Source of the DNA: Mobula hypostoma
Taxonomy: Eukaryota
DNA: 64,000 nt
Assembly (NCBI RefSeq): GCF_963921235.1
Contig: NC_086108.1
Location: 20,026,001-20,090,000, forward strand
Direction: 5' to 3'
Within the stretch, counting starts at the first letter, position 1; every line of letters starts with the position of its first letter. Made by a program: the position numbers and the translations under genes. The notes under the pieces were generated by a model. It searched no databases. It worked only from the letters and a program-made list of their open reading frames with translations, and had not been told where the DNA came from. Shown piece by piece: positions 1 to 60,500 of this stretch.

Positions 1-3000
1 TGAGGACGAGCAAGTGAGGTAGGGCTGGGTAAGTTCCTTTAAAAGGAGAACTGTCTGCAGTGGTATTTTATTTGAAGCAAGGAAGGCGGCGAGTCTGTAG
101 TGTATTGGGTAGGTCATGACAGCTGAGATCTGCCCCGTAGTTTGTTCCTCCTGCAGCATGTGGGAAATCAGGGATACTTCCAGTGTCCCTGACGACAATG
201 TGTGCAGAAAATGTGTCCAGCTGCAGCTTCTGGCAGACTGCATTGAACAGCTGGAGCTGCAATTGGATTCATACTGGAGCATCCGCGATGCTGAGAAAGT
301 TGTGAATAGCACGTTCAGTGAGTTGGCCACACCGCAGGTAAAGGCTACCCAGGCAGAAAGGAAATGGGTGGCCACTAGACAGCATAGCAGTAGGCAGGTA
401 GTGCAGGAGTCCCCTGAGGTCATCTCCCTCCTAAACAGATATACTGTTTTGGAAACTGTTGGGGGAGATGTCTCATCAGGGGAAGGCAGCAGCAACCGAG
501 TTCATGGCACCATGGGTGGCTCTGCAGCACAGGAGGGAAGGAAAAGGAGTGGGAGAGCTATAGTGATAGGGGATTCGATTGTAAGGGGAATAGATAGGTG
601 TTTCTGCGGCCACAAACGAGACTCCAGGAGGGTATGTTGCCTCCCTGGTGCAAGGGTCAAGGATGTCTCTGAGCGGCTGCAGGACATTCTGGAGTGGGAG
701 GGTGAACAGCCAGTGGTCGTGGTGCACCTAGGTACCAATGATATAGGTAAAAAATGGGATGAGGTCCTACAAGGTGAGTTTAGGGAGTTAGGAGATAAAC
801 TAAAAAGTAGGACCACAAAGGTAATAATCTCTGGATTACTACCAGTGCCACGTGCTAGTCAGAGTAGAAATAGGAGGATATTTCAGATGAATATGTGGCT
901 TTAAATATGGTGCAAGGGGGAGGGATTCAAATTTCTGGGGCATTGGAACCAGTTCTGGAGGAGGTGGGACCGGTACAAACAGGACAGTCTGCACCTGGGC
1001 TGGACTGGAACCAATGTCCTAGGGGGAGCGTTTGCTACTGTTGCTCAGGAGGATTTAAACTAATGTGGCAGGGGGATGGGAACAAGTGCAGAGAGACAGA
1101 GGGGTGTAAAATGAGGGTAGAAGCAAAAAGTAGTAAGGTGAAAAGTAAAAGTGGCAGGCTTGCAAATCCAGGGCAAAAATCAAAAAGGGCCACTTTTCAA
1201 CATAATTGTATAAGGGCTAAGAGTGTTGTAAAAGCAAGCCTGAAGGCTTTGTGTGTCAATGCAAGGAGCATTTGTAACAAGGTGGATGAATTGAATGTGC
1301 AGATAGTTATTAATGAATATGATATAGTTGGGATCACAGAGACATGGCTCCAGGGTGACCAAGGATGGGAGCTCAACATTCAGGGATATTCAATATTCAG
1401 GAGGGATAGACTTGAAAGTAAAGGAGGTGGGGTGGCATTGCTGGTTACAGAGGAGATTAACGCAATAGAAAGGAAGGACATTAGCCGGGAGGATGTGGAA
1501 TCGATATGGGTAGAGCTGCATAACACTAAGGGGCAGAAAACGCTGGTGGGAGTTGTGTACAGGCCACCTAACAGTAGTAGTGAGGTTGGGAATGGCATTA
1601 AACAGGAAATTAGAAATGCATGCAATAAAGGAACAGCAGTTAAAATGGGTGACTTCAATCTACATATAGATTGGGTGAACCAAATTGGTAAGGGTGCTGA
1701 GGAAGAGGATTTCTTGGAATGTATGCGGGATAGTTTTCTGAACCAACATGTTGAAGAACCAACTAGAGAACAGGCCATTATGGACTGGGTATTGAGCAAT
1801 GAGGAAGGGTTAGTTAGCAATCTTGTCGTGCGAGGCCCCTTGGGTAAGAGTGACCATAATATGGTGCAATTATTCATTAAGATGGAGAGTGATATAGTTA
1901 ATTCAGAAACAAAGGTTCTGAACTTAAAGAAGAGTAACTTTGAAGGTATGAGATGTGAATTAGCTAAGATAGACTGGCAAATGATACTTAAAGGGGTGAC
2001 GGTGGATATGCAATATACATTTAAAGATCGCATGGATGAACTACAACAATTGTTCATCCCAGTTTGGCAAAAGAATAAACCAGGGAAGGTAGTGCACCCA
2101 TGGCTGACAAGGGAAATTAGAGATAGTATCAATTCCAAAGAAGAAACATACAAATTAGCCAGAAAAAGCGGCACACCTGAGGACTGGGAGAAATTCAGAG
2201 TCCAGCAGAGGAGGTCAAAGGGCTTAATTAGGAAAGGGAAAAAAGATTATGAGAGAAAGCTATCAGGGAACATAAAAACTGACTGTAAAAGCTTTTATAG
2301 ATATGTGAAAAGAAAAAGATTGATTAAGACAAATGTAGGTCCCTTACAGTCAGTAACAGGTGAATTGATCATGGGGAACAAGGACATGGCAGACCAATTG
2401 AATAACTACTTTGGTTCTGTCTTCACTAAGGAGGACATAAATAATCATCTGGAAATAGTAGGGGACCAAGAGTCTAGTGAGATGGAGGAACCGAGGGAAA
2501 TACATGTTAGTAGGGAAGTGGTGTTAGGTAAATTGAAGGCAGCTAAATTCCCAGGGCCAGATGGTCTGCATCCCAGAGTGCTTAAGGAAATAGCCCAAGA
2601 AATAGTGGATGCATTACTGATAATTTTTCAAAACTCTTTAGATTCTGATTTAGTTCCTGAGGATTGGAGGGTGGCTAATGTAACCCTGCTTTTTAAAAAA
2701 GGAGGGCGAGAGAAACTGAGGAATTATAGACCGGTAAGCCTGACATCGGTGGTGGGGAAAATGCTAGAGTCAGTTATCAAAGATGTGACAACAGCACATT
2801 TGGAAAGTGGTGAAATCATCGGATAAAGTCAGCATGGATTTGTGAAAGGAAAATCATATCTGACAAATCTCATAGAATTTTTTGAGGATGTAACTAGTAG
2901 AGTGGATAGGGGAGAATCAGTGGATATGGTACATTTGGAATTTCAAAACGCTTTTGACAAGGTTCCACAAAGGAGATTAGTGTGCAAACTTAAAGCACAC

Positions 3001-3373
3001 GGTATTGGGGGTATGGTATTGATGTGAGTAGAGAACTGGTTGGCAGACAGGAAGCAAAGAGTAGGAATAAACGGGACCTTTTCAGAATGGCAGGCAGTGA
3101 CTAGTTGGGTACCGCAAGGCTCAGTGCTGGGACCCCAGTTGTTTACAATATATATTAGTGACTTAGACGAGGGAATTAAATGCAGTATCTCTAAGTTTGC
3201 AGATGACACGAAGCTGGGTGGCAGTGTTAGCTGTGAGGAGGATCTAAGAGGATGCAGGGTGACTTGGATAGGTTGGGTGAGTGGGCAAATTCATGGCAGA
3301 TGCAATTTAATGTGGATAAATGTGAGGTTATCCACTTTGGTGGCAAGAACAGGAAAACAGATTATTATCTGAA
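1..3373 (+). mobile_element. CR1 LINE lacking its 3' end: ORF1 (zinc finger + SGNH esterase) and ORF2 (APE endonuclease + RT, disrupted)
   Basis: ORF 116-904 has CSSCSMW, GDSIVRG and HLGTND. ORF 895-2826 has NARS, GITETW, VYRPP, GDFN, SDHN and PGPDG. Downstream frames have VPQGSVLGP and KFADD. Confidence 0.93.
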
Positions 3374-11263: not shown

Positions 11264-14200
11264 CCATTTACTACCACCCTCTGCCTTTAGTGGACAAGCC
11301 ACAGAATCCATGCAGCCAGCTTTCCTTGGATCCCATATCTCCTGGCTTTCTGTATGAGTCTATACTGGGGAACCTAGTCAAATACCTTACTAAAATCTAT
11401 ATACACCACATCCACTGGTCTATCTTCAATCTGTTTTGTCACCGACTCAAAGAATTCAATCACGCTCGTGAGGCACAACCTGCATCCCACAAAGCTATGC
11501 CGACTGTCCCTAATCAGACTATACTTTTTCAAGTGCTCGTAAATGCCATCTCTAAGCATCTCTTAATTGCCATCATTGCAGAAGAAGCAAAGCTGCTCCA
11601 GAGGCAGAGGATGTTGGGTGAGGAAGGGAAACAAGGGTTTAGACCCGGCAACATTCTTTTTGCTTTTCTCTGTACTTTCAACCTTATTTACATCTTTCCT
11701 GTAGGTAGGTCACCAAAACTGCACACAATATTCCAAATTAGGCTTCATTAACATCTTATACAACTTCAACATGACATCCCATCTCCTGAACTCAATACAA
11801 TGATTTATTAAGGTTAATCTGCCAAATGCTTTCTTTATGCCTATCTACCTGTCTTCCTCGCTGTCCACTACACCCCTAATCTTGGTGTCATCTGCAAGTT
11901 GCTGACCCAGTTAACAACATTGATATAGATGACAGACAACCACGGGCCCATCACAAATCCCTGCGGCACTCCACTAGTCACAGGCCTCCAGTCAGACAGG
12001 CACCATCTACTATCATTCTCTGACTTCTCCCACAAAGCCATTGTTGAATTCAATTTATTACATCTTGAATGCCAAACGACTGAATCTTCTTGACCAATCC
12101 TCCCATGATGGACATTCTCAAATCCTTGCTAAAGTCCATGTAGACACCATCCACTGCCTTGCCTTCATCTTGGCAACTTCCTCAAAAAACTCTATAACAT
12201 TGGTTAGACACAACCTACCATGCACAATGCTATGCTGACTATATCCCTAATCAATCCATGTCTATCCAAATACTCATATAGCTGGTCCCATAGAGCACCT
12301 TCCAATAATTTACTGATGTCAGGCTCACTGGCCTATAACTTCCTGATTCATATTTGGAGTCATTCATAAACAGAGGATCAAAATTAGCTATCCTCCAATC
12401 CTCTGCTACCTCACCCATCGCTAAGGATTTAAGTATCCCTGGCCTCAGCAATTTCTGCACTAGCTTCACACGGGGTCCAAGGGAACACCTTGTTGGTCCC
12501 TGGGGATTTATTCACCCTAATTTGCCTTAAGATGATAAACACCTTCTCCTCTGTAATCTGTATGGGGTCTGTGAAATTGATGCTGCTTTGCCTCATTTCT
12601 ATAGACTGTGTCCATCTCGTGAGTAAATACAGATGTAAAAAAATTCATTTGTGATTTCCCCCATCTCTTTTGGCTCTGCATATGGATTACCATAATGACC
12701 TTCCAGAGACCCTTGCAATCCTTTCAACATATCTGTAGAATTCCTTAGGATCTTCCTTCACCTTGTCCTCTCTGGCAACCTCATGCCTTCTTTTAGTCCA
12801 ACCGATTTCTTTCTTAAGTGTTCCCTTGCATTTCTTATAGCACCTCATTCGTTCCTACTTGTCCATACCTGCTATGCACCTCCTTTTTTAAACCAGGACC
12901 TCAATATCACTTGAAAACCAAGGTTCCCAAAACCTGTTATCTTCACCTTTTATTCCAACAGGCACATGCAAGCTTTACGCTCTCAAAATTTCACTTTTGC
13001 AGACTTCCCATTTACCAAGTACATCTTTGCCAAAACACCCTGTCCCAATCTACACTTGCCAGATCCTTTCTGATACCATCAAAATTGGCCTTTTTCCAAT
13101 TATGAACCCACAGACCAGACCTATCTTTTCCTATATTTACTTTGAAACTAATGGCATTATGATCACTAGATGGAAAGTGTTCCCCTACACAAATTTCTGT
13201 CACCTGCCCAGTCTCATTCCCAAACAGTAGATCAAGTATCACACAATCTCTCATTTGGACTTCTTAATCTTATTAAGGAAAATTTCCTGAACAAATTGAC
13301 AAACTCTATCCTACCAAGCAACACACATAAAAGTTGCTGGTGAACACAGCAGGCCAGGAAGCGTCTCTAGGAAAAGGTACAGTCGACATTTCGGGCCGAG
13401 ATCCTTCGTCAGGATTAACTGAAAGAAGAGCTAGTAAGAGATTTGAAAGTGGGAGGGGGAGATCCGAAATGATAGGAGAAGACAGGAGGGGGAGGGATGG
13501 AGCCAAGAGCTGGATAGTTGATTGGCAAAAGGGGTATGAGAGGATCTTGGGACAGGAGGCCTAGGGAGAAGAAAAGGGGGGGGGAACCAGAGGATGGGCA
13601 AGGGGTATAGTGAGAGGGACAGAGGGAGAAAAAGGAGAGAGAGAAAAAGAATGTGTATATAAATAAATAACGGATGGGGTACGAGGGGGAGGTGGGGCAT
13701 TAGCAGAAGTTTACCAAGACCTTTTACGGTATGGGAGTCCAAGTCAATATGTAGAAAGCTAAAAATCGCCTACTCTAACCTTATTTTTCTTGCAGCAGTC
13801 TGCGATCTCTGTACAAATTTTCATTCTCATGCCCAGAACCTCCCGTCAGTTCCCCTAACTCATGAATCCCTATCACCACAGCTTTCCTTTCTTCCCACCT
13901 TCCCTTTAAAGTTACAGAGCCAGACTCAGTGCCAAAGACCTGACTGATGTGATTTTCCTCTGCTAGGCCTTTCCCCACCCACAACAACAGCATCCAAAGT
14001 GGTATACGTGTTGTGGATGGGATAGCCACAGAGGTACTCTGCACTGGTTGTTTAACCCCTTTCCCCTTCCTGTCACCCAGCTTCCTGTGACCATCACTCT
14101 ATCACTCCCTCAGCCACCTGAATGATCTGGAGTTCATCACTTCGGGCTTCAACTTCTTAACGCGCAGTGTGCATATTATCCCTGTGACTGTTCAGATTTC

Positions 14201-28379: not shown

Positions 28380-28479
28380 ACCTGAACAGTTTTGTTTCTC
28401 GGACTCATACTTGTGGAGAGCTTTGTGCTGCTCATATTGGTCAGGAGGTTAGACTCTGTGGCTGGATTCAGTATCAAAG
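28380..28479 (+). CDS. DARS2: DARS2 exon 2
   Basis: ctgtAG acceptor and GTatgt donor, 100 nt. Encodes (D)[32 protein letters not shown](R), the AspRS N-terminal RTHTCGEL...V.LCGW motif. Confidence 0.96.
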
Positions 28480-29740: not shown

Positions 29741-32700
29741 AGTAATTGTAAAGGCTTTATAAGGTATTGATCAGACCACACCGAGTATTATGAGCAGTTT
29801 TGGGCTCCTTATCTCAGACTGTGTGTGCTACCTTTGGAGAGGGTCCAGAGGAGGTTCACAAGAATGATCCAAGGAATCATTCGTAGGTTAACATATGAGG
29901 AGCATTTGGTGACTCGCTGGAGTTTAGAAGAATGAGAGGGGCTCTCATTGAAACCTATTGAATATTGAAAGGCCTTGATAGAGTGGACGTGGAGAGGATA
30001 TTTCCAATAGTGGGTGAATCTAGGTCCTGAGGGCACAGCTTCAGAATAGAGGCGAACGTATTCAGAAGAATAGAGATGAGGAAGAATTTCTTTAGCCATA
30101 AGGTGGTGAATCTGCATTCATTGTGTATATATAAAGTGGAGGTTGATAAGTTCTTGATTAGTAATGGCATCAAAGGTTACAGAGAGAAGGCAGAAGAATG
30201 GCATTGAGAGGAATAGTAAATCATTCATGATTGAATGGCAGAGCAGACTTGATGGGCCACATGGCCTAATTCTGTTCCTCTGTCTTATGGTCTTCCCTTT
30301 CAATGTAGAAACACTGACAAGGATTGTTCCTGAACTCTGAATTTTATATACTATTGTTTAAACAGATTTAACAAGAATAATAAAACACAGTAAAGTCAGT
30401 GGTTTGGAGGCAGGTATAATGAACATGTTCAACTCTGAAATTCCATTCAGCATGTAGTTTCTGACATGTGACTATCTGAGTTACTGTCACCTTTCTGTCA
30501 GCTTGAACCAGTATACCCCATACCTAATAAAATGGCCGCTGACTGTATGGTTAAGGCAATACAATGCAAGCAGATAGCAGCAATATAGTTTCATAATTGA
30601 GGGCTGATCTTTTAAACTTGAAAATTGCCGTGGAAACTACTGCAGTAAACAGCCTGCATAAAGCCATTAAAATGAATAACCAACAGTACGAATCCTAGAA
30701 AGAACCAATAGACATGGCAGAATAAATCATCCAGAAGATAAGGCTTGCAGCTGGAAATACCAGGGAGGCCTCTTAGTCTTTGAAAACATGGTTGCAGGGG
30801 AGGGTATCGGGTAAGACTGAAGACCAAGGCAATCCTTTGTTGGCACGCTTCTGGATTATGTGTAGTCATTAGAAAACAAGATTGAGGATCTCAGAGCATG
30901 ACTATTGGTAGGGTACAAGGGGCTGCTGTGTACAGTACTCTATTTCACAGACATGTGAAATTAACCCAACTCAACTGACATGGTGTCTAGTTCATTGATC
31001 GACCGCATGGCCCAGATAGCAGCGTCAGGTAAGGGAAAAGGTGGCTGTGTCTTAATGATAAACTCATCGTGGTACACAGACACAGTGGTTTTGTTCCATT
31101 CCTGCTCCCCCTGCCTGGAACATCTTGCACTGAAGTGCTGACTCTTCTACCTGCTGCGGAGTTTTCTCCTGTTCTCCTGACTGCATTCTACATCTTACCT
31201 CAGGCAGACATCAAGCTCGCACTTGAGAAGCTTGACGTTGTAATCAACAAGAGTAAAGTGGCATACCTTGTCACCCGTTACATCGTGGCAGGTGACTTGT
31301 ATCAGTTTAGCTTAAGTAAGTGTCTGCCTAATCACAATCAACATTATCTGAAACACTAGAAGACCGAACACATTCGACCACTGTGATACCACCATTAAGT
31401 ACGCCTTGGTAAATCCAACTACCATGCTCTGCGGCTTCTGTTGGTGTACAGACAGAGATTGAAGAATGCAACACTGATGAAGAGCTGGGTGGCAGAGGCA
31501 GAGAAGTGAATTTGGGATTGTTTAGAGTTAGAAGATTGGATCATGTTCAAGGATTCATTAAAAGACCTAAGTGAATATGCCACAGTTATCATCAATTTCA
31601 TATGGAAATACATGAACAAATGTGTACCCACAAAAAACGTTCCTTGCCTTCCCCAACCAGAAGCCCCTGAATGAACCAGATTTGTAATTTGTTGAGGGCT
31701 AGATCTGTGGCATTTAGTGCTGGCAGTCAAGAATCATAGAAGTCCAGGTGCAACCTCTGGATGGCCATTGAGAGTGCAAAGAAGCAATTTCAGACTAAAC
31801 TGGAATTACAGATGGATGCTCAGCAGCTAGAGCAGGACTTGCGCAATGTTACATCCTACAAGGTGAGATTGGTTAGAGTAAGTGGCTACTGTCCAATCCG
31901 TTCTGAATGAGCTCAATGCCTTTTATGTATTCTTTGAAAGGAAGAACTACTTTTCTCAAAGAAATGCCACACATACATTTCTGGATGACCCGATACTTTC
32001 AGTCTCTGAGGCCAGCAACTGCGCTTTCTTCAAGTGAATAAATCTACAAAGGGCTTTTGGTCCTGATGGTGTATCTGGCTGAATACCAATGATCTGCGTG
32101 GACCATCCAGCTGAGTATTTTTGGAAATATTTCAGTCTCTCACTTCTGCACTGTTAAGTTCTGATCTGCTTCAAAAGGCATCTATTGTACGGGGTCCAAG
32201 AAGAGCACGATGACCTGCCTCAATGACTACTGTCTGGTAGCCCTTACATTAATCATAATGAAGTGCTTCAGAATGCTGGTATTGGGCATATCCAACTCCT
32301 GCCTCAGAGAGCACCTAGATAAGTTTCAGTTTGCCTACTGCCAGAACAGTGAAACAGCGGATACTCAGCCTATAATTACCCTTTTGGAGTTGAGCTTTGC
32401 CTGTACAACCTGGCATTTTTTGCAGGGTGAACTGAAATCTCAAAGGTGCAGGACAGTTGTGGCCGAATTGAGAGTGGAGAAGGAGCTGATGTTTGGCCAT
32501 TGCTGGAGCGAACTTGGATGCAACATGAAATGGCAGAACCATGGTGAGGCATGGTCGAAACATGGCCTGGTTCTGAGACTGGGAAAAGGCCAGTTATTTC
32601 ATGAAGGATCCCACCCACCCTGCTCATGGACTGTTTGTCCACTTTCATTAAGGGGAGATGCTACGTAGGGGACACCGGGACCATCAGACTCAAAAACAGT

Positions 32701-34762
32701 TACTTTTCCAAAGCAGTGAGGCAAATCAACACCTCCATCCGTTAACTCACCCCACAACAGCACAACTTTACCATTTCTTGTCAGTCATCTTCTATCTAGA
32801 CACTCTTGTACCTCCTGTCATTTTATGTATGATCAATTCATGTATATAAGCTATCTTATTTATTTGTATTTATGCTATTTTTTATATATAATTTTTATTG
32901 AGTTTTCAAAGTGATACATGAGAAAAAAAAATCTACCCTCCCCCCTCCCCTTAACCCTCCCCCCCCGATATATACTCCTACCTAAAAAGAAAAGAAAAAA
33001 AAAGGAACCACCTGAATATTGGAAGGTTTGCACATGCTCCATGGGATAAAAATAAATTTAATATATATTTGTTACTTTCCCCCAAGGAACCAAGATCTTC
33101 ATCATCGGAGCTATAAATAAGGGCTCCAAATATTCAAAAACGTTACATATTTATCTCTTAAAATCTAAAACATTACTTAGCTTCTCAACTGTCATAGTTC
33201 CCTGGGGAATCTCTTTGAACTTCACCATGTTGCTATGTGTTTCCCTCCCAATCATCCAGGCAAAAAGAAAAAAGAAAAAAAAATAGATAAGATACAAAAA
33301 AGGAAAAAAACAAAATACCCCCCCACTAATGTTGTGAATGAAAAGATACACAACACTACCCCCCTCCATTGTGTGGGTCGTGGCTATTGCCACGCTTGCA
33401 CACATGAATAACGTAGCGACTGGTCAGTGTTTCTTCCAGCTCCCCAGTAACAAAAAATTATATATACATAGAAAAAAATTAATGTTATTATTCCCAGCTA
33501 ATGTTCCTCAAATTTTAACCTTTCTTCCCCTCCCTCATATAATTAATAATATATTTATATATTCAACCGCCTAAAAATTCAACAGGCCTAATCCTTGATC
33601 CAGTCTTCATCTTCAATCCATCTCGCTCCCCTAAGTTTGGTCTTGTATCTGGTGAATATTCAAAGAATCTCACACAAACTCCTCTGCTTTCCGGTAATCG
33701 TCAAAAAATCTTTTTTCTCCACCAGGCAAAAAAATCTTCAAGGTTGCAGGATAACGCAATATAACTTGATAACGGTGATCCCATAGGGCTTTTTTCACTG
33801 GATTAAACTTCTTTAAAAGTTCATAACTTATGTCAGGGTAGAAAAAAATTTTCTTCCCTTCTATCATCAGTGGCCCTTTTCTCTTCTTGGCAGTTTGGGC
33901 ACCCGCCTGTAGAATCCTTTCTTTGTCTTGAAATCTTAAGAATTTTATTAAAATTGATCTTGGATATTGGTCATCTTGTGGTTTTGGTCTTAGAGCTCTA
34001 TGTACCCGCTCAATTTCAATTGATCGGTCTTCCTCTTTCATTTGCAAGGTTTTCGGGATCCATCTTTGAAAAAATTCTATTGGATTATCTTCCTCTATAC
34101 CTCCTTTAAGACCAACAATTTTAATGTTATTACGTCTACTAAAATTTTCCAACACGTCCACTTTCTCCAAGAGTCGATTTCTTTCCGTGTTCCAGACAAG
34201 CACATTATTTTCTGTTTTTTCCACTCTATCGTTAATATGCTCCATTGTTCTTTCCATCTTCTGAAGTTTCTTATCCATTTTATCCTGTCTTTTCATAGCT
34301 TTATCATAGCACATCTTCACGTCTCTAAGCTCTGTTCTTAATTTTCTTAGTTCAGCCGTTAATTGCAATAGAGCCTCTCTTATATCTCTGTCGTCTCCTT
34401 TACTTCCAGTCTCTTCCAGTTCTTCCTCCTCTTCTTCATCTGTATTCTCTGCGATATCCAATTCTGACTCTGAGTCACTTTCAGTTGCAGTGGCCGTCGG
34501 CTCTTGTAGTTTAAATTGTGTCGATTTGCGCATGCGTACTTCCGGCATCTTCTTCTGAGAGACCGCTACCGCCGCCATTGCTCCCTGTTCTTCTATGCCA
34601 GAGATAAAATGCGTCTCCTCTGAAGGAGATCCAACCTGAATCCGAGGCTCCATCGCTGCAGTAGGCCTTTTTTTCTTCCCATCTCGTGGCGACTTCACAA
34701 CAACAGACTTCTTCTGTTGAGGTTTACGAGGCATATCGTAGAGTAGTCTTACGAAGTTTATA

Positions 34763-35519
34763 GAACACACATAAAAGTTGCTGGTGAACGCAGCAGGCCA
34801 GGCAGCATCTCTAGAAAGAGGTGCAGTCGACGTTTCAGGCCGAGACCCTTTGTCAGGACTAACTGAAGGAAGAGTGAGTAAGAGATTTGAATGTGGGAGG
34901 GGGAGGGGGAGATTCAAAATGATAGGAGAAGACAGGAGGGGGAGGGATGGAGCCAAGAACTGGACAGGTGATAGGCAAAAGGGATACGAGAGGATCATGG
35001 GACAGGAGGTCCAGGAAGAAAGACAAGGGGGTGGGGGGCGACCCAGAGGATGGGCAAGGGGTATATTCAGAGGGACAGAGGGAGAAAAAGGAGAGTGAGA
35101 GAAAGAATGTGTGTATAAAAATAAGTAACAGACGGGGTACGAGGGGGAGGTGGGGCATCAGCGGAAGTTAGAGAAGTCGATGTTCATGCCATCAGGTTGG
35201 AGGCTACCCAGGCGGAATATAAGGTGTTGTTCCGGCGGACCTCCTGTCCCATGATCCTCTCGTATCCCTTTTGCCTATCACCTGTTCAGCTCTTGGCTCC
35301 ATCCCTCCCCCTCCTGTCTTCTCCTATCATTTTGAATCTCCCCCTCCCCTTCCAACTTTCAAATCCCTTACTCACTCTTCCTTCAGTTAGTCCTGACGAA
35401 GGGTCTCGGCCTGAAACGTCGACTGCACCTCTTCCTAGAGATGCTACCTGGCCTGCTGCGTTCACCAGCAACTTTTATGTGTGTTGCTTGAATTTCCAGC
35501 ATCTGCAGAATTCCTGTTG
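34763..35519. mobile_element. Penelope pLTR fold-back insertion
   Basis: Arms 34764-35012 and 35237-35485 are reverse complements. Flanked by a 15-bp direct repeat CTTACGAAGTTTATA (34748-34762 and 35520-35534). Confidence 0.88.
35389..35424 (+). ncRNA. Minimal type I hammerhead ribozyme motif (Penelope-associated)
   Basis: AGTC-CTGACGA-AGGGTCTCGGCCT-GAAA-C-GTC-GACT: stem I AGTC/GACT, CUGANGA and GAAA cores, GUC cleavage triplet (predicted cut after 35420). Confidence 0.75.
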
Positions 35520-35869
35520 CTTACGAAGTTTATAAGTAGTTTTCGGAAAGTATTTATTAACTTTACTTTGTTTAAACGGTACTTTGCTGATTTTTTACGG
35601 GAGAGCTGGATTTACACGTCTCAATCCCACGTCATCACGTGACGCCCCCCATTTATGCTATTTTTATTATTGTCTTTACCTTATTGTGTTTTTTTGTGCT
35701 GCATTGGATCAGGAGCAACAATTATTTTGTTCCCCTTTACTCTTGTGTACCAGAAATGACATCTTGAATTGATTTTGAATAATAGGCATTATTTTTACTA
35801 ACCACTGAGATAACATCCTCTTGCTTGATTTACACTTCATCCCCTTGTTTCCTCAGATTAGGTTTAGAA

Positions 35870-35948
35870 CAGGGTTCTCAACCTGCAATCCACAGACCCT
35901 CAGCTCAATGGTATTGGTCCATGGAATACAAAAAATTGGGAACCCCTG
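35870..35948. mobile_element. Short hAT-type MITE
   Basis: Imperfect TIRs CAGGGTTCTCAACCT and AAATTGGGAACCCCTG; degenerate 8-bp flanks GTTTAGAA and ATCTAGAA. Confidence 0.55.
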
Positions 35949-37029
35949 ATCTAGAACCTCATTCTTAATAGAAATATTAATTCAGCTGTGTGCAAATTTC
36001 TTAAATAGTGTGTAATGCTTTGGTTCATTTTTTTTTACTGTTAGGATGCTGCTGCAAGCTGCTTGTTTGAGTTACTGTTGAAGATAAGAGATAGGAGAAT
36101 CGTGTGCCATCCAATTAGGATGGCCAGATTAAAGGGAGGTTTCTCTGGGGAGGGACACTAAGGTTGGGCTTGGGGCTTTTTGGTTCGAGGGATGAAGGAA
36201 GAAGACATCGGAGAGAAGAGGTCGTAGGACTCGACCCGGAGCGGGGCCATGATTTGACGAAGCCTAGGGTGAGATCGAAGGAGGATTGGCAATGGGGAAA
36301 CTGAGAGCTCCAACTTGTGCACATTAGACTGTTTCATTAAAATGGGCTTTTTAAAAAATTCTTTCTTTACTAACCCTTAGTCAAATTAAGAATTATAAAG
36401 CTTAATCTTTTAATTGTATGCGGTGTACTGTCTGATATTTCATGGTACTTATTTGTAACAGGGTAATGAATCATGCAGCATCCAGACAAACGGGGTTTTG
36501 GGATGGGCTTGCGCCTCAATCTCACAAGTTTGGCTGGGGTCAGAGATTGTCTTCCCTAGACTTGCGCAGCCGACCAAACCAGAGTGTTTCAAGTGTATAA
36601 TCCTTTCATGCTACGGTGATCTCTGTTAATGTTGGGGAAGTTTGAAATCCCTTACTACTACAACATTGCTGCTCTTGCATCTTTGATTTGTGAAGGTATT
36701 GTGAAATGATAGCTGTTCTGGTTGTGTTGCATCATTTTTTTTCCTGGTTCCTAGGTTTTGCTTAAATTTAAATAGATACCATAAGTAGTGTTTCTCTGTG
36801 GTCTCACAAGTGCTCTGAGTTGATGGGTACAAACACTGCTGTGTTTTTAAGTACAGATACCAGCTAGTCAAGTTGCCATATGGAATACAAAATTGAAATA
36901 GATCACCCCCAGTTTCTAGGTGTCTTGACTGAGAAAAGAATTGCAGGACCCTTGTGATAGAAGGAATTGTGCATTGTAATTGAATGCCTTATCACCTGCT
37001 GTCATTAACTGTTTCTTGTGTTTGTTCAG

Positions 37030-37096
37030 ACAGGGCCTCTTTATAATCCTAAGAGATTTTGATGGATTAACTCAAGTTGTTATACCACAGGAGGAG
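37030..37096 (+). CDS. DARS2: DARS2 exon 3
   Basis: ttcAG acceptor and GTacgt donor, 67 nt. Encodes (R)QGLFIILRDFDGLTQVVIPQEE, the anticodon-binding OB-fold F..LRD..G..Q motif. Confidence 0.96.
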
Positions 37097-37264
37097 GTAC
37101 GTAGATTTGGAGTTCAGCAAATTTTATGATTGTAATCACCACACCATCAGAATTATCTTCATTATAAATTTGAAGCAAATGAATTAGATCTTAAGGACAT
37201 ATTCTCAGCTGTATTTGTACTTTTAGAAAGATGGTAAAATTTTGATAATTCAAGTTATTAAGAA

Positions 37265-37495
37265 TACCTGGGCACCAAGGTAACACGGCATTGAGTTTGG
37301 AGTTCACTTCTGTAAGGAGTTTGTACATCCTCTCTGTGACCTCGTGGGTTTCCTCTGGGTGCTCTGGTTTCAAGTTCACAGTGCAAAGATGTACTAATGA
37401 TTAGGTTAGTTGGTCAATGTAAATTGTCCTGTGATTAGGCTAGTATTAAATAGGTGGGTTGCTGCGCAGCGTGGTTTGTTGGCCAGAAGGCTCAA
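37265..37495 (+). mobile_element. V-SINE-like SINE
   Basis: Core GTGGGTTTCCTCTGGGTGCTCTGGTTTC...TAAATTGTCC resembles the recalled V-SINE central domain. Confidence 0.6.
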
Positions 37496-37504
37496 CATTA
37501 TTAT

Positions 37505-38625
37505 CGGAATAATAAGATCTGCAGGTGCTGGAAATCCACAGCAACACACACAAAATGCCGAGACCCTTCTGCAGGACTGGAAAGGAAGGGGAAAGAAGCC
37601 CAAAAAAAGGTGGGGGAAAGGGAAGGGGTATGTCTAAAAGGAGATGGGTGAAGTCAGGTGAGAAGGATAGGAAAAGGCCTGGAGAGGAAAGAATCTGATG
37701 GGAGAGGAGAGTGGACCATAGGATAGAGAGAAGGAGAGGACCTGGGGTGGGGGTGGGCAGAGGTTGAATCGGCGCTGAGAGGCAGCTGAGAAGACTTAAG
37801 AGGCCTGAATGGGGAATCAAAGAAGAAAAGAAGGGGAGGGAATTTTTTTTTACTGGAAGAAGAACTCCATATTCATGCCACCGATTTGGAGGCTACCCAG
37901 ACCGAATATAAGGTGTCGCTCATCTACCCTGTGTATGGTCTCGTTGTGGCACAAGAGGAGCTCATGGACTGACATGACGGAATGGGAATTGGAATTAAAA
38001 TGCTTGGGTACTGGGAGATTATGCTTTTGGTAGATGGAGCAGAGGTGCTCATGAATTGGTCTCCCAATTTATGTAGCTCTCACCAGCTATGGTTGCACTA
38101 GGAGCACTGTACGTAATAGATGACCCAAGCAGGTTCAGTGTTGCCTCACCCGATATGACTGTTAGGGCCCTGAACAGAGGTGAGGGAGGAGGTGGATGGA
38201 CAACTATAGCACTTTGGCCAAATGCAGGATAAGTGTCAAGAGGGAGATTAGTGGGGAGGGACAAGTGGACGAGGGAATCATGGAGGAAGTGATCCCTGTG
38301 GAAAACAGAGAGAAGGGGGAGATAAAGGTACGTTTGGTGGTTGGATCCCTTTAGAGATGGCAGAAGTTGTGGAGAATAATGTGTTAGATGCGGAGGCTCA
38401 TATGGTGGTTGATATGATGTGAGCGTGGATGTCTGGGAAATAGAGGAGATGCGGGTGAAGGCATCGTCAATGGTGGGGGAAGGGAAACCCCGTTCTTTGA
38501 AGGAGGAGGATACTTCTATGTCCTGGAAAGGAAAGATGCACCCTGGGTGCGGATGTGACACAGACAAAGAAACTGAGAAAAGGAAATAGCATTTTTACAG
38601 GAGACTGGGTGGGAGGAGGCGTAGT
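37505..38625 (-). mobile_element. Older Penelope-like element fragment
   Basis: Minus-strand FKERGFPS motif and homology to the C-terminal region of the 58-59 kb Penelope element. Another related fragment lies at about 42205-42985. Confidence 0.75.
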
Positions 38626-38644
38626 TAAGATAGAGGAGCAGAAT

Positions 38645-41600
38645 TAAGCCATAGGACTATTGAACTTGCTCTGCCATTTCATCATGGCTGTTCCATTTTC
38701 CCTCTCTGTCCCAATCTCCTGTCTTCTCGCCGTATCCCTTCATGTCATGACTAATCAAGAATCTACCAACCTCTGCCTTAAATATACATAAACACTTGTC
38801 CTCCACAGCTGCCTGTGGCAATGAATTCCACAGCTTCAGTGCTCTCTGAATAAAGAAATTCCTCCTTTTCATTCTAAAACAACTCTCCTCTATTCAAAGT
38901 TTGAAGTACATTTATCATCAAAGAATGTATAGATTATACAACCTTGAAATTTGTTTCCTCATAAGTAGCCTTAAAGCAAGAAACCTGAAATAACACAATT
39001 TATAAAATAAAAATGGAAGTCCAACACCCGATACGCAAGAGAAAAAAAACGCAAATCATACGAACAATTGAAGCGAACTGCAACAATCTGAACCAAGAAT
39101 TGAGTCCTCAGAGCTGACCCCAAAGCCTTGTTTATCAGTTCATTATATTAGTGGGCATGGAACACAACAGCCAGGGCTGTCTTCATAGCCTCAGTGTCAT
39201 AGAGAGAGAGGAGTGACCATTGTGGAGAACGAACAAAATCAGCTCTCACCCGGGATCCCAGTACTCAGTCTTTTCAGTCTATCTGGGCCAGTGTTTAAAT
39301 TGACCAAACATTGGAACAGCGAGAGGCTCCGGTGCCCTGAAGAAAGGAGAGAACATCATGGAGGGCGAGCGAAATCGGCTCTCACCTCTGATCTGGGTTG
39401 GTGTTTAAATTGTCTAAACAGCATATGGACCCTGGCACTGCTGCTGCGAAAGGCTCCAGGCCTACACCACGCTGCCCATCAGCTCGCTTCAGATCCAGAT
39501 TTTGTTGCCCAGCCCAAAGCTGCTGTCAAGCTCTTCATTTCAGCTCACTGCCCAGAGCAATTTAACCTCGTACACAGGCCAGTTGTACAGGTACCAACTC
39601 TCCTCTGCCCAAGCCCCAGCTTCTCCTTTCGGCACCCAGAGTAATCCAACCTCACTCCTGGGCCAGCTGTATGTGCACTGGAACTCTTTATCTGCGATGA
39701 TTCTGCAACACACCTTCGCAGCTCATCCCCTGAACTCGCCTCGCCATCGCTCACTGTTTGCAGCCATAATTTAACACGATTTATCTCGGAGAAGGTACTT
39801 TTAGTGATGTTTTTAGTCAGATTTCTTAGCTGTTTGATTACCAAATAAGCTGTTGCACATATTACATAGTGCTATCTTAGCCAGAAGAGTCCTCTGGTCA
39901 GACTCTCCCACCACAGGAAACATTCTCTCTACAACCACTCTAATCAAGGCTTTTCATCATTTGATAGCTTTCAATTAGGTCACCCCTCATTCGTCTGAAT
40001 TCCAGTGAGTACAGGGCCAGAGCCATCAAACATATGACAAGCCTTTCCATCCCAGAATCATTTTTGTGAACTTCATTTGAACTCTCTCCAACGTCAGCAC
40101 ATACTTTCTTAGATAAGTGGCCCAAAGCCACTCATAGTACTCCAAGTGAGGCCTCACCAGTGCTTTATAAGGCCTCAGTATTACATTCTTGCTTTCACAT
40201 TCCAGTCCTCTTGAAATGAATACTAATAATGCACTTACCTTCCTCACCACCAACTCAATCTGCAAATTAACCTTTAGGGAATCCTTCACAAGGGCTCCCA
40301 AGTCCCTTTGCACTTCAGATTTCTGAATTTTCTCTCTGTTTAGGAAATAGTCTACCCTTTTACTTCTACCAATGTTCATGTCCATACTCTTCCCAACACT
40401 GTATTCCATCTGCCACTTCTTTTCCCGTTCTTTTAATCTCTCTCTACTCTCTACCTCTACTTCCTCTCTACTTCCTCAAAGGTACCTGCATCTCCACCTA
40501 CCTTTGTATAGTCTGCATACTTTGCAGCAAAGCCATCAATTCTGTCATCCAAGTCATGGACATATAATGTAAAAATAATCAGTCCCAACGCAGACCCCTG
40601 TGGAACACCACTAATCAATGGCAGCCAACCAGAAAAGGCTTCCTTCGTTCCCACTCTTTGCCTCCTGCTAATCAGCCACTGCTTTATCCATGCTAGAATC
40701 TTTGCTGTAATACGATGGACTCATAGCTTGTTAAGCAGCCTCGTGTGGCACCTTGTCAAAGGTCTTATGAAAGTCCAAGCCACCAATTCTCCTTTGTCTA
40801 TCCTGCTTGTTATTTCTTCAAAGAATTCCAACAGAGTAGTCAGGCAAAGTTTTCCCTTAAGGAAACTATGCTGGCTACAGCCTATTTTATCATGTGCCTC
40901 CAAGTACCCCGAAACTGTATCCTTAACAATCAACTCCAATATCTTCACAAACACTAAGGTCAGTCTAACTGACCTAAAATTTCCTTTCTTTTGCCTCTCT
41001 CCCTTCTTGAAGAATGGAATGACATTTGCAATTTTTTTCGGTCTTCCAGAACCATTCCAGAATCTAGCAATTCTTGGATGATCATTACTAATGCCTTCAC
41101 AATCTCTTCAGCCACCTCTTGAGAACCCTTGGGTGTACACCATTTGGTGCAGGTGACTTATCTACCTTCAGACTTACAGTTTCCCAAAAAGCCTTCTCCC
41201 TAGTAATAGCAACTTCACTCACTTCTGCCTGCTGACACTCTCAAACGTCCGGCATATTGCTAGCGTCTTCCACAGTGATGATTTATGCAATATAATTATT
41301 CAGTTTGTCGATCTGCCTCTCTACCAGAGGACTTTAGGTTCAGACCCAGGGAATAATTGTCAAACACAGTTTACTTAAAATTGCATACTGTTTATTAGCA
41401 AGATTGCGTCGCTCAGTATAACTACGGAGTCCCCGCACACAGAACCTGGGAAAATCTGCAACCCAAGTAAGCCCTGAGTACTGTCTGGGGTTGCTTGTTA
41501 AACATTTGTTATCGCATACATACTCTGATTGTTGCTAGGCATCTTGATACGGGTTACACAGAGCAGCAACAAGCACTTCTTTGTTCATTAGTTATCTTTG

Positions 41601-57549: not shown

Positions 57550-60500
57550 ATAAACATATAACCATTACAGCACGGAAACAGGCCATCTCGGCCCTTCTGG
57601 TCTGTGCCGAACTCTTACTCTCACCTAGTCCTACCGAACAGCACTCAGCCCATAACTCTCCATTCCTTTCCTGTCCATATAGCTGTCCAATTTAACTTTA
57701 AACAACAACATCGAACCTGCCTCAACCACTTTTGTTGGAAGCTCATTCCACACAGCTACCACTCTCTGAGTAAAGAAGCTCCCCCTCATGTTACCCCTAA
57801 ACTTTTGCCCTTTAACTCTCAACTCATGTCCTCTTGTTTGAATCTACCCCACTCTCAATGGAAAAAGCCTATCCACGTCAACTTTATCTATCCCTCTCAT
57901 AATTTTAAATAGCTCGTGTAGCTATGGGCACCCGTATGGGTCCTAGCTATGCCTGCTTTTTTGTTGGCTTTGTGGAACAATCTATGTTCCAAACCTATTC
58001 TGGTATCTGTCTCCCACTTTTCCTTCGCTACATCGACGACTGCATTGGCGCTGCTTCCTGCACGCATGCTGAGCTCGTTGACTTCATTAGCTTTGCCTCC
58101 AACTTTCACCCTGCCCTCAAGTTTACCTGGTCCATTTCCGACACCTCCCTCCCCTTTCTAGATCATTCTGTCTCTATCTCTGGAGACAGCTTATCTACTG
58201 ATGTCTACTATAAGCCTACTGACTCTCACAGCTATCTGGACTATTCCTCTTCTCACCCTGTCTATTGCAAATATGCCATCCCCTGCTCGCAATTCCTCCG
58301 TCTCCGCCGCATCTGCTCTCAGGATGAGGCTTTTCATTCCAGGACGAGGGATATGTCCTTCTTTTTCAGAGAAAGGGGCTTCCCTTCCTCCACCATCAAC
58401 TCTGCTGTCAAATGCGTCGTCCCCATTTCACGCACATCTGCTCTCACTCCATCCTCCCGTCACCCCACTAGGAATAGGGTTCCCCTCGTCTTCACCTACC
58501 ACTCCACCAGCCTCCGGGTCCAACATATAATTCTCCGTAACTTCCGCCACCTCCAATGGGATCCCACCACTAAGCACATCTTTCCCTCCCCCGCCCACCC
58601 CCGCTTTCTGCAGGGATCGCTCCCTATGCGACTCCCTTGTCCATTCGTTCCCCCATCCCTCCCCACCGATCTCCCTCCTGGCACTTATCCTTGTAAGCGG
58701 AACAAGTGCTACACATGCCCTTACACTTCCTCCCTTACCACCATTCAGGGCCCCAGACAGTCCTTCCAGGTGAGGCGACACTTCACCTGTGAGTCGGCTG
58801 GGGTGATATACTGCGTCTGATGCTCGGATGTGGCCTTCTATATATTGGCGAGACCCGACGCAGACTGGGAGATCGTTTCGCTGAACACCTACGCTCTGTC
58901 CGCCAGAGAAAGCAGGATCTCCCCGTGGCCACACATTTCAATTCCAAGTCCTATTCCCATTCTGATATGTCTATCCATGGCCTCCTCTACTGTAAAGATG
59001 AAGCCACACTCAGGTTGGAGGAACATCACCTTATATTCCGTCTGGGTAGCCTCCAACCTGATGACATGAACATTGACTTCTCAAACTTTCGCTAATGCCC
59101 CACCTCCCCCTCGTACCTCATCGGTTATTTATTTATTTATATATACACATTCTTTTTCTCTCTCTCCGTTTTCTCCCTCTGTCCCTCTCACTATACCCCT
59201 TGCCCATCCTCTGGGTTTTCTCCCTTCCCCCTTTTCTTTCTCCCTGGGCCTCCTGTCCCATGATCCTGTCATATCCCTTTTGCCAATCAACTGTCCAGCT
59301 CTTGGCTCCATCGCTCCCCCTCCTGTCTTCTCCTATCATTTTGGATCTCCCGCTCCCCCTTCCACTTTCAAATCTCTTACTAGCTCTTCTTTCAGTTAGT
59401 CCTGACGAAGGGTCTCGGCCCGAAATGTCGACTGTACCTCTTCCTAGAGATGCTGCCTAGCCTGCTGCGTTCACCAGCAACTTTGATGTGTATTACCTCT
59501 ATTAAGTCCCCCCTCAACCTTCTACGTTCCAAAGAATAAAGACACAACTTGTTCAACCTTTCTCTGTAATTTAGGAGATGAAACCCAGGTAACATTCTAG
59601 TAAACCTTCCCTGTACTCTCTCTATTTTGTTGACATCTTTCTGATAATTCGGTAACTGAAACTGTACACAATACTCAAATTTGGCCTCACCAATGCCTTG
59701 TACAATTTCAGCATTACATCCCAACTCCCATACTCAATGGTCTGATTAATAAAGGGGAGCATGCCAAAAGCTTTCTTCACCACCCTATCCACATGAGATT
59801 CCACCTTCAGGGAACTATGCACCATTATTCCTAGATCCCCCTGTTCTACTGCATTCTTCAATGCCCTACCATTTACCATGTATGTCCTATTTTGATTAGG
59901 CCTACCAAAATGTAGCACCTCACGTTTATCAGCATTAAACTCCATCTGCCATCTTTCAGCCTACTCTTCTAACTGGCCTAAATCTCTCTGCAAGCTTTGA
60001 AAACCTACTTCATTATCCACAACTCCACCAATCTTAGTATAATCTGCATACTTACTAATCTAATTTATCACCCCATCATCCAGATCATTAATGTATATGA
60101 CAAATAACATTGGACCCAGTACAGAGGCACACCACTAGTCACCGGTCTCCAATCTGACAAACAGTTATCCACCACCACTCTCTGGCGTCTCCCATCCAGC
60201 CACTGCTGAATCTATTTTACTACTTCAATATTAATACCTAACGCTTGAACCTTCCTAACCAACCTTCCATGTGGAACCTTGTCAAAGGCATTACTGAAGT
60301 CCATATAGACAACATCCACCGCTTTACCCTCGTCAACATTCCTAGTAACCTCTTCAAAAAATTCAATAAGATTTGTCAAACAGACCTTCCACACACAAAT
60401 CCATGTTGACTGTTCCTAATCAGACCCCGTCCATCCAGATAATTATACATACCATCTCTATGAATACCTTCCATCAATTTACCCACCACTGACGTCAAAC

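What the first reader, a model, noticed from the sequence alone, without database searches (positions are those of the whole stretch)
34763..35519. Intact-core hammerhead ribozyme in the DARS2 pre-mRNA, embedded in a fold-back with its own antisense copy
Seen: a Penelope terminus inserted as a ~250-bp inverted repeat with a ~225-nt loop. The right arm holds CTGACGA...GAAAC-GTC with stem I AGTC/GACT on the DARS2 sense strand, in intron 2 about 1.6 kb upstream of exon 3. The left arm (34825-34860) is its reverse complement, with a core change CTGACAA on its own strand. Known: Penelope-like elements carry minimal hammerheads that lack a stem III loop and are thought to need dimerisation to cleave. 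Inference: in the DARS2 transcript the long hairpin could sequester the ribozyme, acting as a built-in silencer that makes the insertion tolerable in an essential gene. The hairpin could also be an ADAR or Dicer substrate.
Basis: partly seen in the sequence, partly recalled or inferred. Interest (0 to 1): 0.7.

Follow-up and report, generated by a model that had tools for sequence, protein, structure and literature searches.

The report
Ordinary Penelope hairpin in DARS2 intron
This 757-base hairpin in an intron of the DARS2 gene is one ordinary, decayed insertion of a very abundant Penelope-type jumping gene; its predicted ribozyme is one of tens of thousands of identical copies, and the hairpin is likely a by-product of how the element inserts, not a silencer kept to protect the gene.

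Summary
34763-35519 is one insertion with a 15-bp target-site duplication, absent from 19 of 19 paralogues of the LINE-1 copy it landed in. It lies between DARS2 exons at 28380-28479 and 37030-37096. It is two head-to-head 3' ends of a Neptune-type Penelope-like element (PLE). The right arm carries a minimal hammerhead predicted to be fully paired with the left arm.

The silencer idea is not supported. The genome holds 45,569 exact copies of this 32-base motif, and 41 of 100 consecutive copies lie in such fold-backs. In 1.27 Mb of 19 genes, unshielded copies are not depleted on the sense strand (11 sense, 5 antisense; 7 sense fully intact). A local hairpin is predicted to disrupt the motif without the left arm, and published PLE minimal hammerheads are inactive as monomers. 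Against my reading, all 3 exact sense copies in DARS2 are shielded.

Side result: in 54 of 54 fold-backs exactly one arm has the 34-nt tail, and partner arms share variants. This points to priming from both cut target ends. The scan has noted this mechanism before on other DNA, in this genome and in others.

The parts
34763..35519 (.). Whole head-to-head insertion of a Neptune-type Penelope-like element (757 bp)
   Evidence: TSD either side; absent from 19 of 19 LINE-1 paralogues; both halves map to the 3' end of a long copy, L198
34748..34762 (.). Left copy of the 15-bp target-site duplication
   Evidence: family D12; present once in the paralogues
35520..35534 (.). Right copy of the 15-bp target-site duplication
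   Evidence: family D12, 100% identical
34764..35233 (-). Long arm: 5'-truncated copy (L198 2604-3069), no tail; holds the last codons of the RT-GIY-YIG ORF (stop 35158-35160), the 3' region and the hammerhead
35013..35236 (-). Hairpin loop: the part of the long arm with no partner, plus the junction near 35234-35235
34825..34860 (-). Hammerhead copy of the long arm with G8-to-A core change (CpG transition)
35236..35519 (+). Short arm: inverted 5'-truncated copy (from L198 2819), with tail
35389..35424 (+). Minimal type I hammerhead motif; predicted cut between 35420 and 35421; predicted G.U at 10.1-11.1; palindromic ACGT in place of stem-loop III
35374..35404 (+). Predicted local hairpin that pairs the upstream pyrimidine tract with CUGA and GAAGGG and competes with the hammerhead fold
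   Evidence: stem I probability falls from 0.92-1.0 (35385-35428) to 0.07 (35370-35440) and 0.00 (35340-35470)
35486..35519 (+). 34-nt PLE tail, on this arm only
33670..35650 (-). Host LINE-1 copy: ORF1 33670-34734 and 5' UTR (34735-34762 and 35520-35650), interrupted by the insertion
   Evidence: LINE-1 ORF1p match E 3e-8; paralogue alignments
28380..28479 (+). DARS2 exon upstream (exon 2 by recalled human numbering)
   Evidence: 4AH6 residues 6-36, E 1e-10; AG/GT borders seen
37030..37096 (+). DARS2 exon downstream (exon 3 by recalled human numbering)
   Evidence: 4AH6 residues 38-59, E 7e-5; AG/GT borders seen

Best explanation
This is a single, decayed, 5'-truncated head-to-head insertion of an abundant Neptune-type Penelope-like element into an older LINE-1 inside a DARS2 intron; the hairpin likely arose during integration, and its predicted hammerhead is likely an inert passenger that the gene tolerates with or without the antisense arm. 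Shown: one event with a 15-bp duplication; two 3' ends of one family, one tailed and one not; the same layout at many loci; unshielded intact copies inside genes. Inferred: the element's protein cut both target strands about 14-15 bp apart; each cut end primed a cDNA, one from each of the two start sites that bound the tail, on the same RNA or the same source element; the two cDNAs stopped early and were joined. Predicted: in a DARS2 transcript the antisense arm is made first, so the ribozyme arm is paired as it emerges; but the motif lacks stem III, has a G.U at 10.1-11.1 and misfolds locally, so it would hardly cut anyway. Not tested: cleavage itself.
For: Empty site in 19 of 19 paralogues. 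45,569 exact 32-mer copies, 0 for the reversed control; 73,774 with a relaxed intact-core pattern. 41 of 100 consecutive exact copies have an antisense partner within 1.4 kb, against 7 of 14 sense and 4 of 5 antisense copies in genes (sense vs sample p 0.57). Of 57 copies found by their flank in 19 gene spans (1.27 Mb), 50 retain the motif: 34 shielded within 6 kb, 11 sense and 5 antisense unshielded (p 0.21); 7 of the 11 are fully intact. Four of those unshielded sense copies have their own TSD within 24 nt of the 5' junction, so they are primary insertions. Core positions are about as variable as the rest (non-CpG mismatch 2.9% vs 3.7%, 48 copies). This locus is of ordinary age: 11 of 465 and 7 of 287 differences from the family majority, median 3.2%. 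One tail in 33 of 33 and 21 of 21 further fold-backs. TSD 12-18 bp in 33 of 33; 0 of 150 mismatched controls reach 12. Partner arms share non-CpG variants at 1.7% vs 0.56% of sites, 0 of 500 re-pairings as high. Print: a Schistosoma min-HHR is inactive as a monomer and weak as a dimer; the Anolis PLE hammerhead cuts only with the PLE protein, is not needed for insertion in vitro, no RNA-seq ends at its site, two RT start sites bound the tail and both strands are extended.
Against: All 3 exact sense copies in DARS2 are in fold-backs (about 0.07 at a 41% base rate, my arithmetic). The fourth sense copy with intact pairing (59398) has an antisense copy 5 kb downstream. The control genes are myosins and ion channels, many probably tissue-limited, and n is small, so weak selection in ubiquitously expressed genes is not excluded. 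The gene status of the contig C1 sample is unknown. Shared variants between arms could also come from gene conversion. Folding energies ignore proteins and tertiary contacts. Neptune assignment rests on one linker motif, not a tree.
Confidence: 0.87

Rival explanations
1. One reading: the hammerhead can cut pre-mRNA, and only copies masked by their own antisense arm are tolerated in essential, broadly expressed genes such as DARS2.
For: Complete predicted pairing. Head-to-head geometry puts the antisense arm first on either strand (32 of 34 shielded copies are head-to-head). 3 of 3 exact sense copies in DARS2 are shielded.
Against: 7 fully intact unshielded sense copies against 2 antisense in 19 genes. 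Shielding is no commoner for sense genic copies than in the unselected sample (7 of 14 vs 41 of 100). Predicted local misfolding without the left arm. Monomer inactivity and protein dependence in print.
Confidence: 0.07
2. The fold-back formed by snap-back self-priming or copying of an antisense template (the self-priming reading in PMC3846280), or by later rearrangement, not by priming at both cut ends.
For: Self-priming is the published reading of head-to-head PLE junctions. In 23 of 54 fold-backs both arms stop within 20 nt of each other.
Against: A snap-back copy of a first cDNA cannot hold sequence the first cDNA lacks, yet in 21 of 54 fold-backs, this one included, the tail-less arm reaches further 5' while the other has the tail. 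Intact TSDs in 33 of 33 argue for one event. An antisense-template version is not excluded.
Confidence: 0.15
3. The hairpin has been recruited as a regulatory double-stranded RNA (ADAR or Dicer substrate) affecting DARS2 splicing or level.
For: A 249-bp, 96% duplex in a pre-mRNA is a plausible ADAR substrate (established knowledge of inverted Alu pairs, recalled).
Against: No sign of constraint: the arms have drifted like average copies, and two more fold-backs with exact motifs on both arms lie in the same gene. Editing would be incidental, as for most inverted repeats.
Confidence: 0.04

Closest known systems
Minimal hammerheads (min-HHR) of metazoan PLEs (Cervera and de la Pena 2014, PMC4209133)
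   Same: Type I topology, short stem I, unpaired base 5' of stem II, palindromic 15.2-16.2, no loop 3, mostly in truncated copies, including pairs on opposite strands 100-700 bp apart.
   Different: Predicted G.U instead of G-C at 10.1-11.1 (the T form is 84 of the first 100 exact copies listed). The copy number (45,569 exact) exceeds the 4,000 and 9,000 reported there for coelacanth and Xenopus, though the counting methods differ.
Insertion units of endonuclease-bearing PLEs with an inverted 5'-truncated copy, TSD and one-sided 30-40-bp tail (Pen2a_Av, PMC3846280; PMC8557442 Fig. 2)
   Same: Head-to-head arms, TSD, tail on one end.
   Different: The passages read call the tail optional or 'often' one-sided; here it is on exactly one arm in 54 of 54. 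TSDs here are 12-18 bp as called with one mismatch allowed, against 8-10 bp in the rotifer examples.
PAc, the Poseidon element of Anolis (Frangieh et al. 2024, PMC11167929)
   Same: Hammerhead in the terminal repeat; tail bounded by two preferred 3' ends (about 3065-3079 and 3100-3108 in L198).
   Different: This family has the CX4CxxC linker of Neptune/Nematis; nothing was assayed here.
Conserved intronic ribozymes of host genes (e.g. the CPEB3 intronic ribozyme; search listing only)
   Same: A predicted self-cleaving motif on the sense strand of an intron.
   Different: Not a single conserved locus: one of tens of thousands of repeat copies, drifting at the family's usual rate.

Membership tests
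PLE minimal hammerhead (min-HHR) | Core CUGANGA, GAAA, UH | tested here: met
   35393-35399, 35413-35416, 35419-35420
PLE minimal hammerhead (min-HHR) | Stem I of 4-5 bp, stem II, unpaired base between 9 and 10.1 | tested here: met
   Isolated 44-mer folds stem I (p 0.92-1.0) and a 4-bp stem II with A35400 outside it
PLE minimal hammerhead (min-HHR) | Palindromic 15.2-16.2, no loop 3 | tested here: met
   ACGT at 35416-35419
PLE minimal hammerhead (min-HHR) | Highly conserved G10.1-C11.1 pair (typical, not part of the search descriptor) | tested here: not met
   G35401.U35412 wobble; a family-wide variant
PLE minimal hammerhead (min-HHR) | Self-cleavage as a dimer or with protein | not testable with these tools
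   Dimeric hammerhead fold -11.1 kcal/mol vs -31.7 for the misfolded dimer MFE; no assay
Rfam hammerhead families | Covariance-model score at the gathering threshold | tested here: not met
   No hammerhead family among 8 hits over 30000-40000 or the 1 hit over 35350-35470 at E up to 10
Endonuclease-bearing PLE | Single ORF with RT and C-terminal GIY-YIG domain in the parent element | tested here: met
   878-aa frame in L198: RVT_1 E 3.6e-5, GIY-YIG E 5.8e-4, both under Pfam's curated cut-offs; the insertion is 93-94% identical to its 3' end
Endonuclease-bearing PLE | 5' truncation, inverted partner, TSD, tail | tested here: met
Neptune clade | CX2-5CxxC linker before the GIY-YIG motif (shared with Nematis) | tested here: met
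   CX4CxxC in L198 against the definition in PMC8557442
Neptune clade | Placement in an RT tree | not tested
   No reference PLE proteins were fetched
Non-LTR retrozyme | Tandem, co-oriented hammerhead units | tested here: not met
   The two motifs are inverted; no direct repeat of the arm inside the insertion
Host-recruited intronic ribozyme | Locus-specific conservation across species | tested here: inconclusive
   No relatives of G000 are held; contigs could not show the junction in a second organism

The most novel reading that the evidence does not exclude
These fold-backs record twin priming by a dimeric Penelope protein on one RNA: the two ends of a staggered cut of about 14-15 bp are each extended, always one from each of the two start sites that bound the tail, and the two cDNAs are joined head to head. 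The by-product is that about two in five copies of the hammerhead are born masked, on either strand, by their own antisense arm.
Probability: 0.6. Interest if true: 0.5.

Novelty: new member of a known kind. Interest (0 to 1): 0.17.

Why it matters
The locus itself matters little: it is one of tens of thousands. It is a useful negative for the idea that transposon ribozymes in introns must be masked to be tolerated. The family is of more use than the locus: the strict one-tail rule, fixed-length TSD and shared arm variants give a testable model for second-strand handling in PLE integration, which PMC11167929 leaves as unvalidated steps. That lead is not specific to this finding and the scan has recorded it many times.

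Tried and rejected
Rfam scans found no hammerhead. The run search listed no RNA holder on record. Laying contigs of four runs on 33600-37300 was swamped by paralogues: no editing, RNA ends or polymorphism can be read from it, and the empty-site joint 34747-35520 is explained by LINE-1 paralogues. Laying four runs on the inversion junction listed no bridging record, which proves nothing; sharing of the insertion with a second organism stays open. Pfam did not identify the LINE-1 ORF1 or the 303-aa RT fragment at 57909; the PDB search identified ORF1. Rejected: hitch-hiking in an L1 subfamily (0 of 19 paralogues carry it); run-off at the ribozyme cut as the usual 5' end (4 of 54 genic ends at L198 2998-3010 against 23 at 2950-2990); a retrozyme reading (no tandem units); simple snap-back on the first cDNA (21 of 54 cases incompatible). 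Rows dropped before counts: 7 of 57 flank-found copies lacked the motif; 2 duplicate loci; fold-backs with an arm under 45 nt or under 87% identity were not counted, and the 56 remaining ends include some of these. Luense et al. 2017 is not held; seen only as a reference title. Searches with no hit: Penelope + stingray, Penelope + Neptune + shark + cartilaginous. No supplements were read; they may hold chondrichthyan counts or junction models.

Full report
Observation. The sequence at 34763-35519 is as described. Arms 34764-35012 and 35237-35485 are 96.4% complementary over 249 nt with a 224-nt loop, and the RNA folds at -568 kcal/mol, z -39. The + strand has a minimal type I hammerhead at 35389-35424 with a predicted cut at 35420/35421, and the left arm has the same motif on - with G8 changed to A. 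The flanking exons 28380-28479 and 37030-37096 match consecutive stretches of human mitochondrial aspartyl-tRNA synthetase, and five more exons follow on + to 44 kb past the window. Exon numbering is recalled from the human gene. Rfam has no matching hammerhead model. The repeat families look like those of a cartilaginous fish; this is recalled and comes from no call.

Anatomy. A 15-bp duplication bounds the element. The target is the 5' UTR of an antisense LINE-1 copy, 13 nt upstream of its ORF1 start (ORF1p match E 3e-8). All 19 paralogues examined, the best-scoring of 666 candidates, have the 15-mer once and no insertion. Mapped on a long family member (L198; 878-aa frame with RT, a CX4CxxC linker and GIY-YIG), the minus-strand arm covers 2604-3069 without the tail and the plus-strand arm starts at 2819 and carries the 34-nt tail. 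The loop is only the extra length of the long arm and contains the last codons of the ORF. The linker places the family with Neptune or Nematis (PMC8557442); no tree was built.

How common. The exact 32-base motif occurs 45,569 times in the 3.48-Gb assembly, the reversed control 0 times; a relaxed intact-core pattern occurs 73,774 times. Of the first 100 exact copies on contig C1, 41 have an antisense partner covering the motif within 1.4 kb. The DARS2 span alone holds 10 flank-defined copies of the young family, 5 on each strand. An intact core is unremarkable at this age: the arms differ from the family majority at 11 of 465 and 7 of 287 positions, against a median of 3.2%, and core positions vary about as much as the others.

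Test of the silencer idea. If the motif cut pre-mRNA and only masked copies were tolerated, unshielded intact copies should be rare on the sense strand of genes. I took 19 gene spans of known strand (12 myosin, 6 ion-channel, DARS2; 1,266,486 bases) and found copies by their 3' flank, not by the motif. Of 57, 50 retain the motif; 34 have a partner within 6 kb; the 16 unshielded are 11 sense and 5 antisense (p 0.21), and 7 of 11 sense against 2 of 5 antisense are fully intact. Four of the unshielded sense copies have their own TSD close to the 5' junction. With exact copies only, 7 of 14 sense copies are shielded against 41 of 100 in the C1 sample (p 0.57). The predicted deficit is absent and the trend is the other way. 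Against this: all 3 exact sense copies in DARS2 are shielded, the sample is small, and the control genes are not known to be essential or broadly expressed.

Is there anything to silence? In the full insertion every motif position pairs with the left arm, so the masking is real as a prediction. But without the left arm, adding 15 nt of upstream sequence drops stem I probability from above 0.9 to 0.07, and to 0.00 with 49 nt, because a local hairpin at 35374-35404 takes the core. The dimeric hammerhead fold (-11.1 kcal/mol) is far above the dimer's minimum (-31.7). Pair 10.1-11.1 is G.U, as in 84 of the first 100 exact copies. In print, a Schistosoma min-HHR gave no cleavage as a monomer and little as a dimer or trimer; the Anolis PLE hammerhead cuts only with the PLE protein present, is dispensable for insertion in vitro, and no RNA-seq reads end at its site.

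How the hairpin arises. In 33 of 33 fold-backs exactly one arm has the tail (17 left, 16 right), although 63 of 122 ends are tailed overall; all have a TSD of 12-18 bp, and 0 of 150 mismatched flank pairs reach 12. A second set of loci gave 21 of 21. Partner arms share non-CpG variants three times as often as unrelated arms and differ half as much, beyond all 500 re-pairings; gene conversion could contribute. In 21 of 54 the tail-less arm extends further 5', as here, which a snap-back copy of the first cDNA cannot give. With the in vitro results that the protein extends both strands and uses two start sites around the tail, the simplest inference is priming at both cut ends and joining of the two cDNAs. 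The published reading is self-priming on an antisense template (PMC3846280). Two searches (3 and 7 papers, listings only, apart from PMC11167929) showed no paper whose title or abstract proposes twin priming for PLEs; the library lacks most subscription papers.

Known or new. Min-HHRs in PLE termini, dual motifs on opposite strands 100-700 bp apart, inverted truncated partners, TSDs and one-sided tails are all in print. In Xenopus about 42-44% of related hammerhead units overlap introns, with a modest depletion after normalising (preprint). Earlier notes of this scan reached the two-ended priming model repeatedly; I looked them up, and they are not independent support.

Papers seen: PMC4209133, parts 1-2 of 4 (results, discussion); PMC11167929, passages and the second half of the main text; PMC3846280, PMC8557442 and PMC6765202, passages; bioRxiv 10.64898/2026.07.22.740005, abstract and most of the results; all others as search listings. 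No supplements.

Verdict. Real, ordinary, and explained by the element's biology. Interest 0.17; new member of a known kind. The silencer reading keeps about 7%.

Noticed in passing
window 59246-59494 (+), motif 59398-59433; element about 57900-59500: A longer copy of the same family on the DARS2 sense strand with an RT fragment (57909-58820) and a motif with intact pairing (U.G at 15.2-16.2); no adjacent inverted arm, nearest antisense copy 5 kb downstream.
   Followed up: partly
G000:C50, about 20,114,500-20,114,800 and 20,132,770-20,133,745 (L036, L038): Two more fold-backs in DARS2 with exact motifs on both arms, and a fourth with a 1.65-kb arm near 20,093,470-20,095,260; the last of the exact pairs ends about 170 nt upstream of the last exon match found.
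   Followed up: partly
L198 coordinates 2950-2990 (window equivalent about 35365-35405): 5' ends of insertions pile up at the front edge of the hammerhead (23 of 54 genic ends; 2 in the 50 nt before; 4 at the cut site). Could mark an RNA start or the local hairpin.
   Followed up: partly
window 35412; genome-wide: The majority form among exact copies carries U at hammerhead position 11.1 (84 of 100 listed), so the family seems to have amplified with a weakened 10.1-11.1 pair.
   Followed up: partly
window 33670-35157 (-): A stop-free frame of 495 codons runs from the PLE 3' region through the left arm into LINE-1 ORF1; probably incidental.
   Followed up: no
window 37518-37578 (-) and 37861-37921 (+): Pieces of an older, diverged Penelope family with a broken core, about 420 nt downstream of the exon at 37030-37096, apparently also head to head.
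   Followed up: no
window 13315-13559 (-): Another copy of the young family upstream of the DARS2 exons found, 89% identical to the arm, stem I damaged.
   Followed up: no
L201 3211-3409 and two myosin-gene loci: Three fold-backs join L198 position 3002-3005 to 2972-2973, i.e. through the stem I complementarity of the hammerhead; microhomology is the simpler reading, not cleavage.
   Followed up: no
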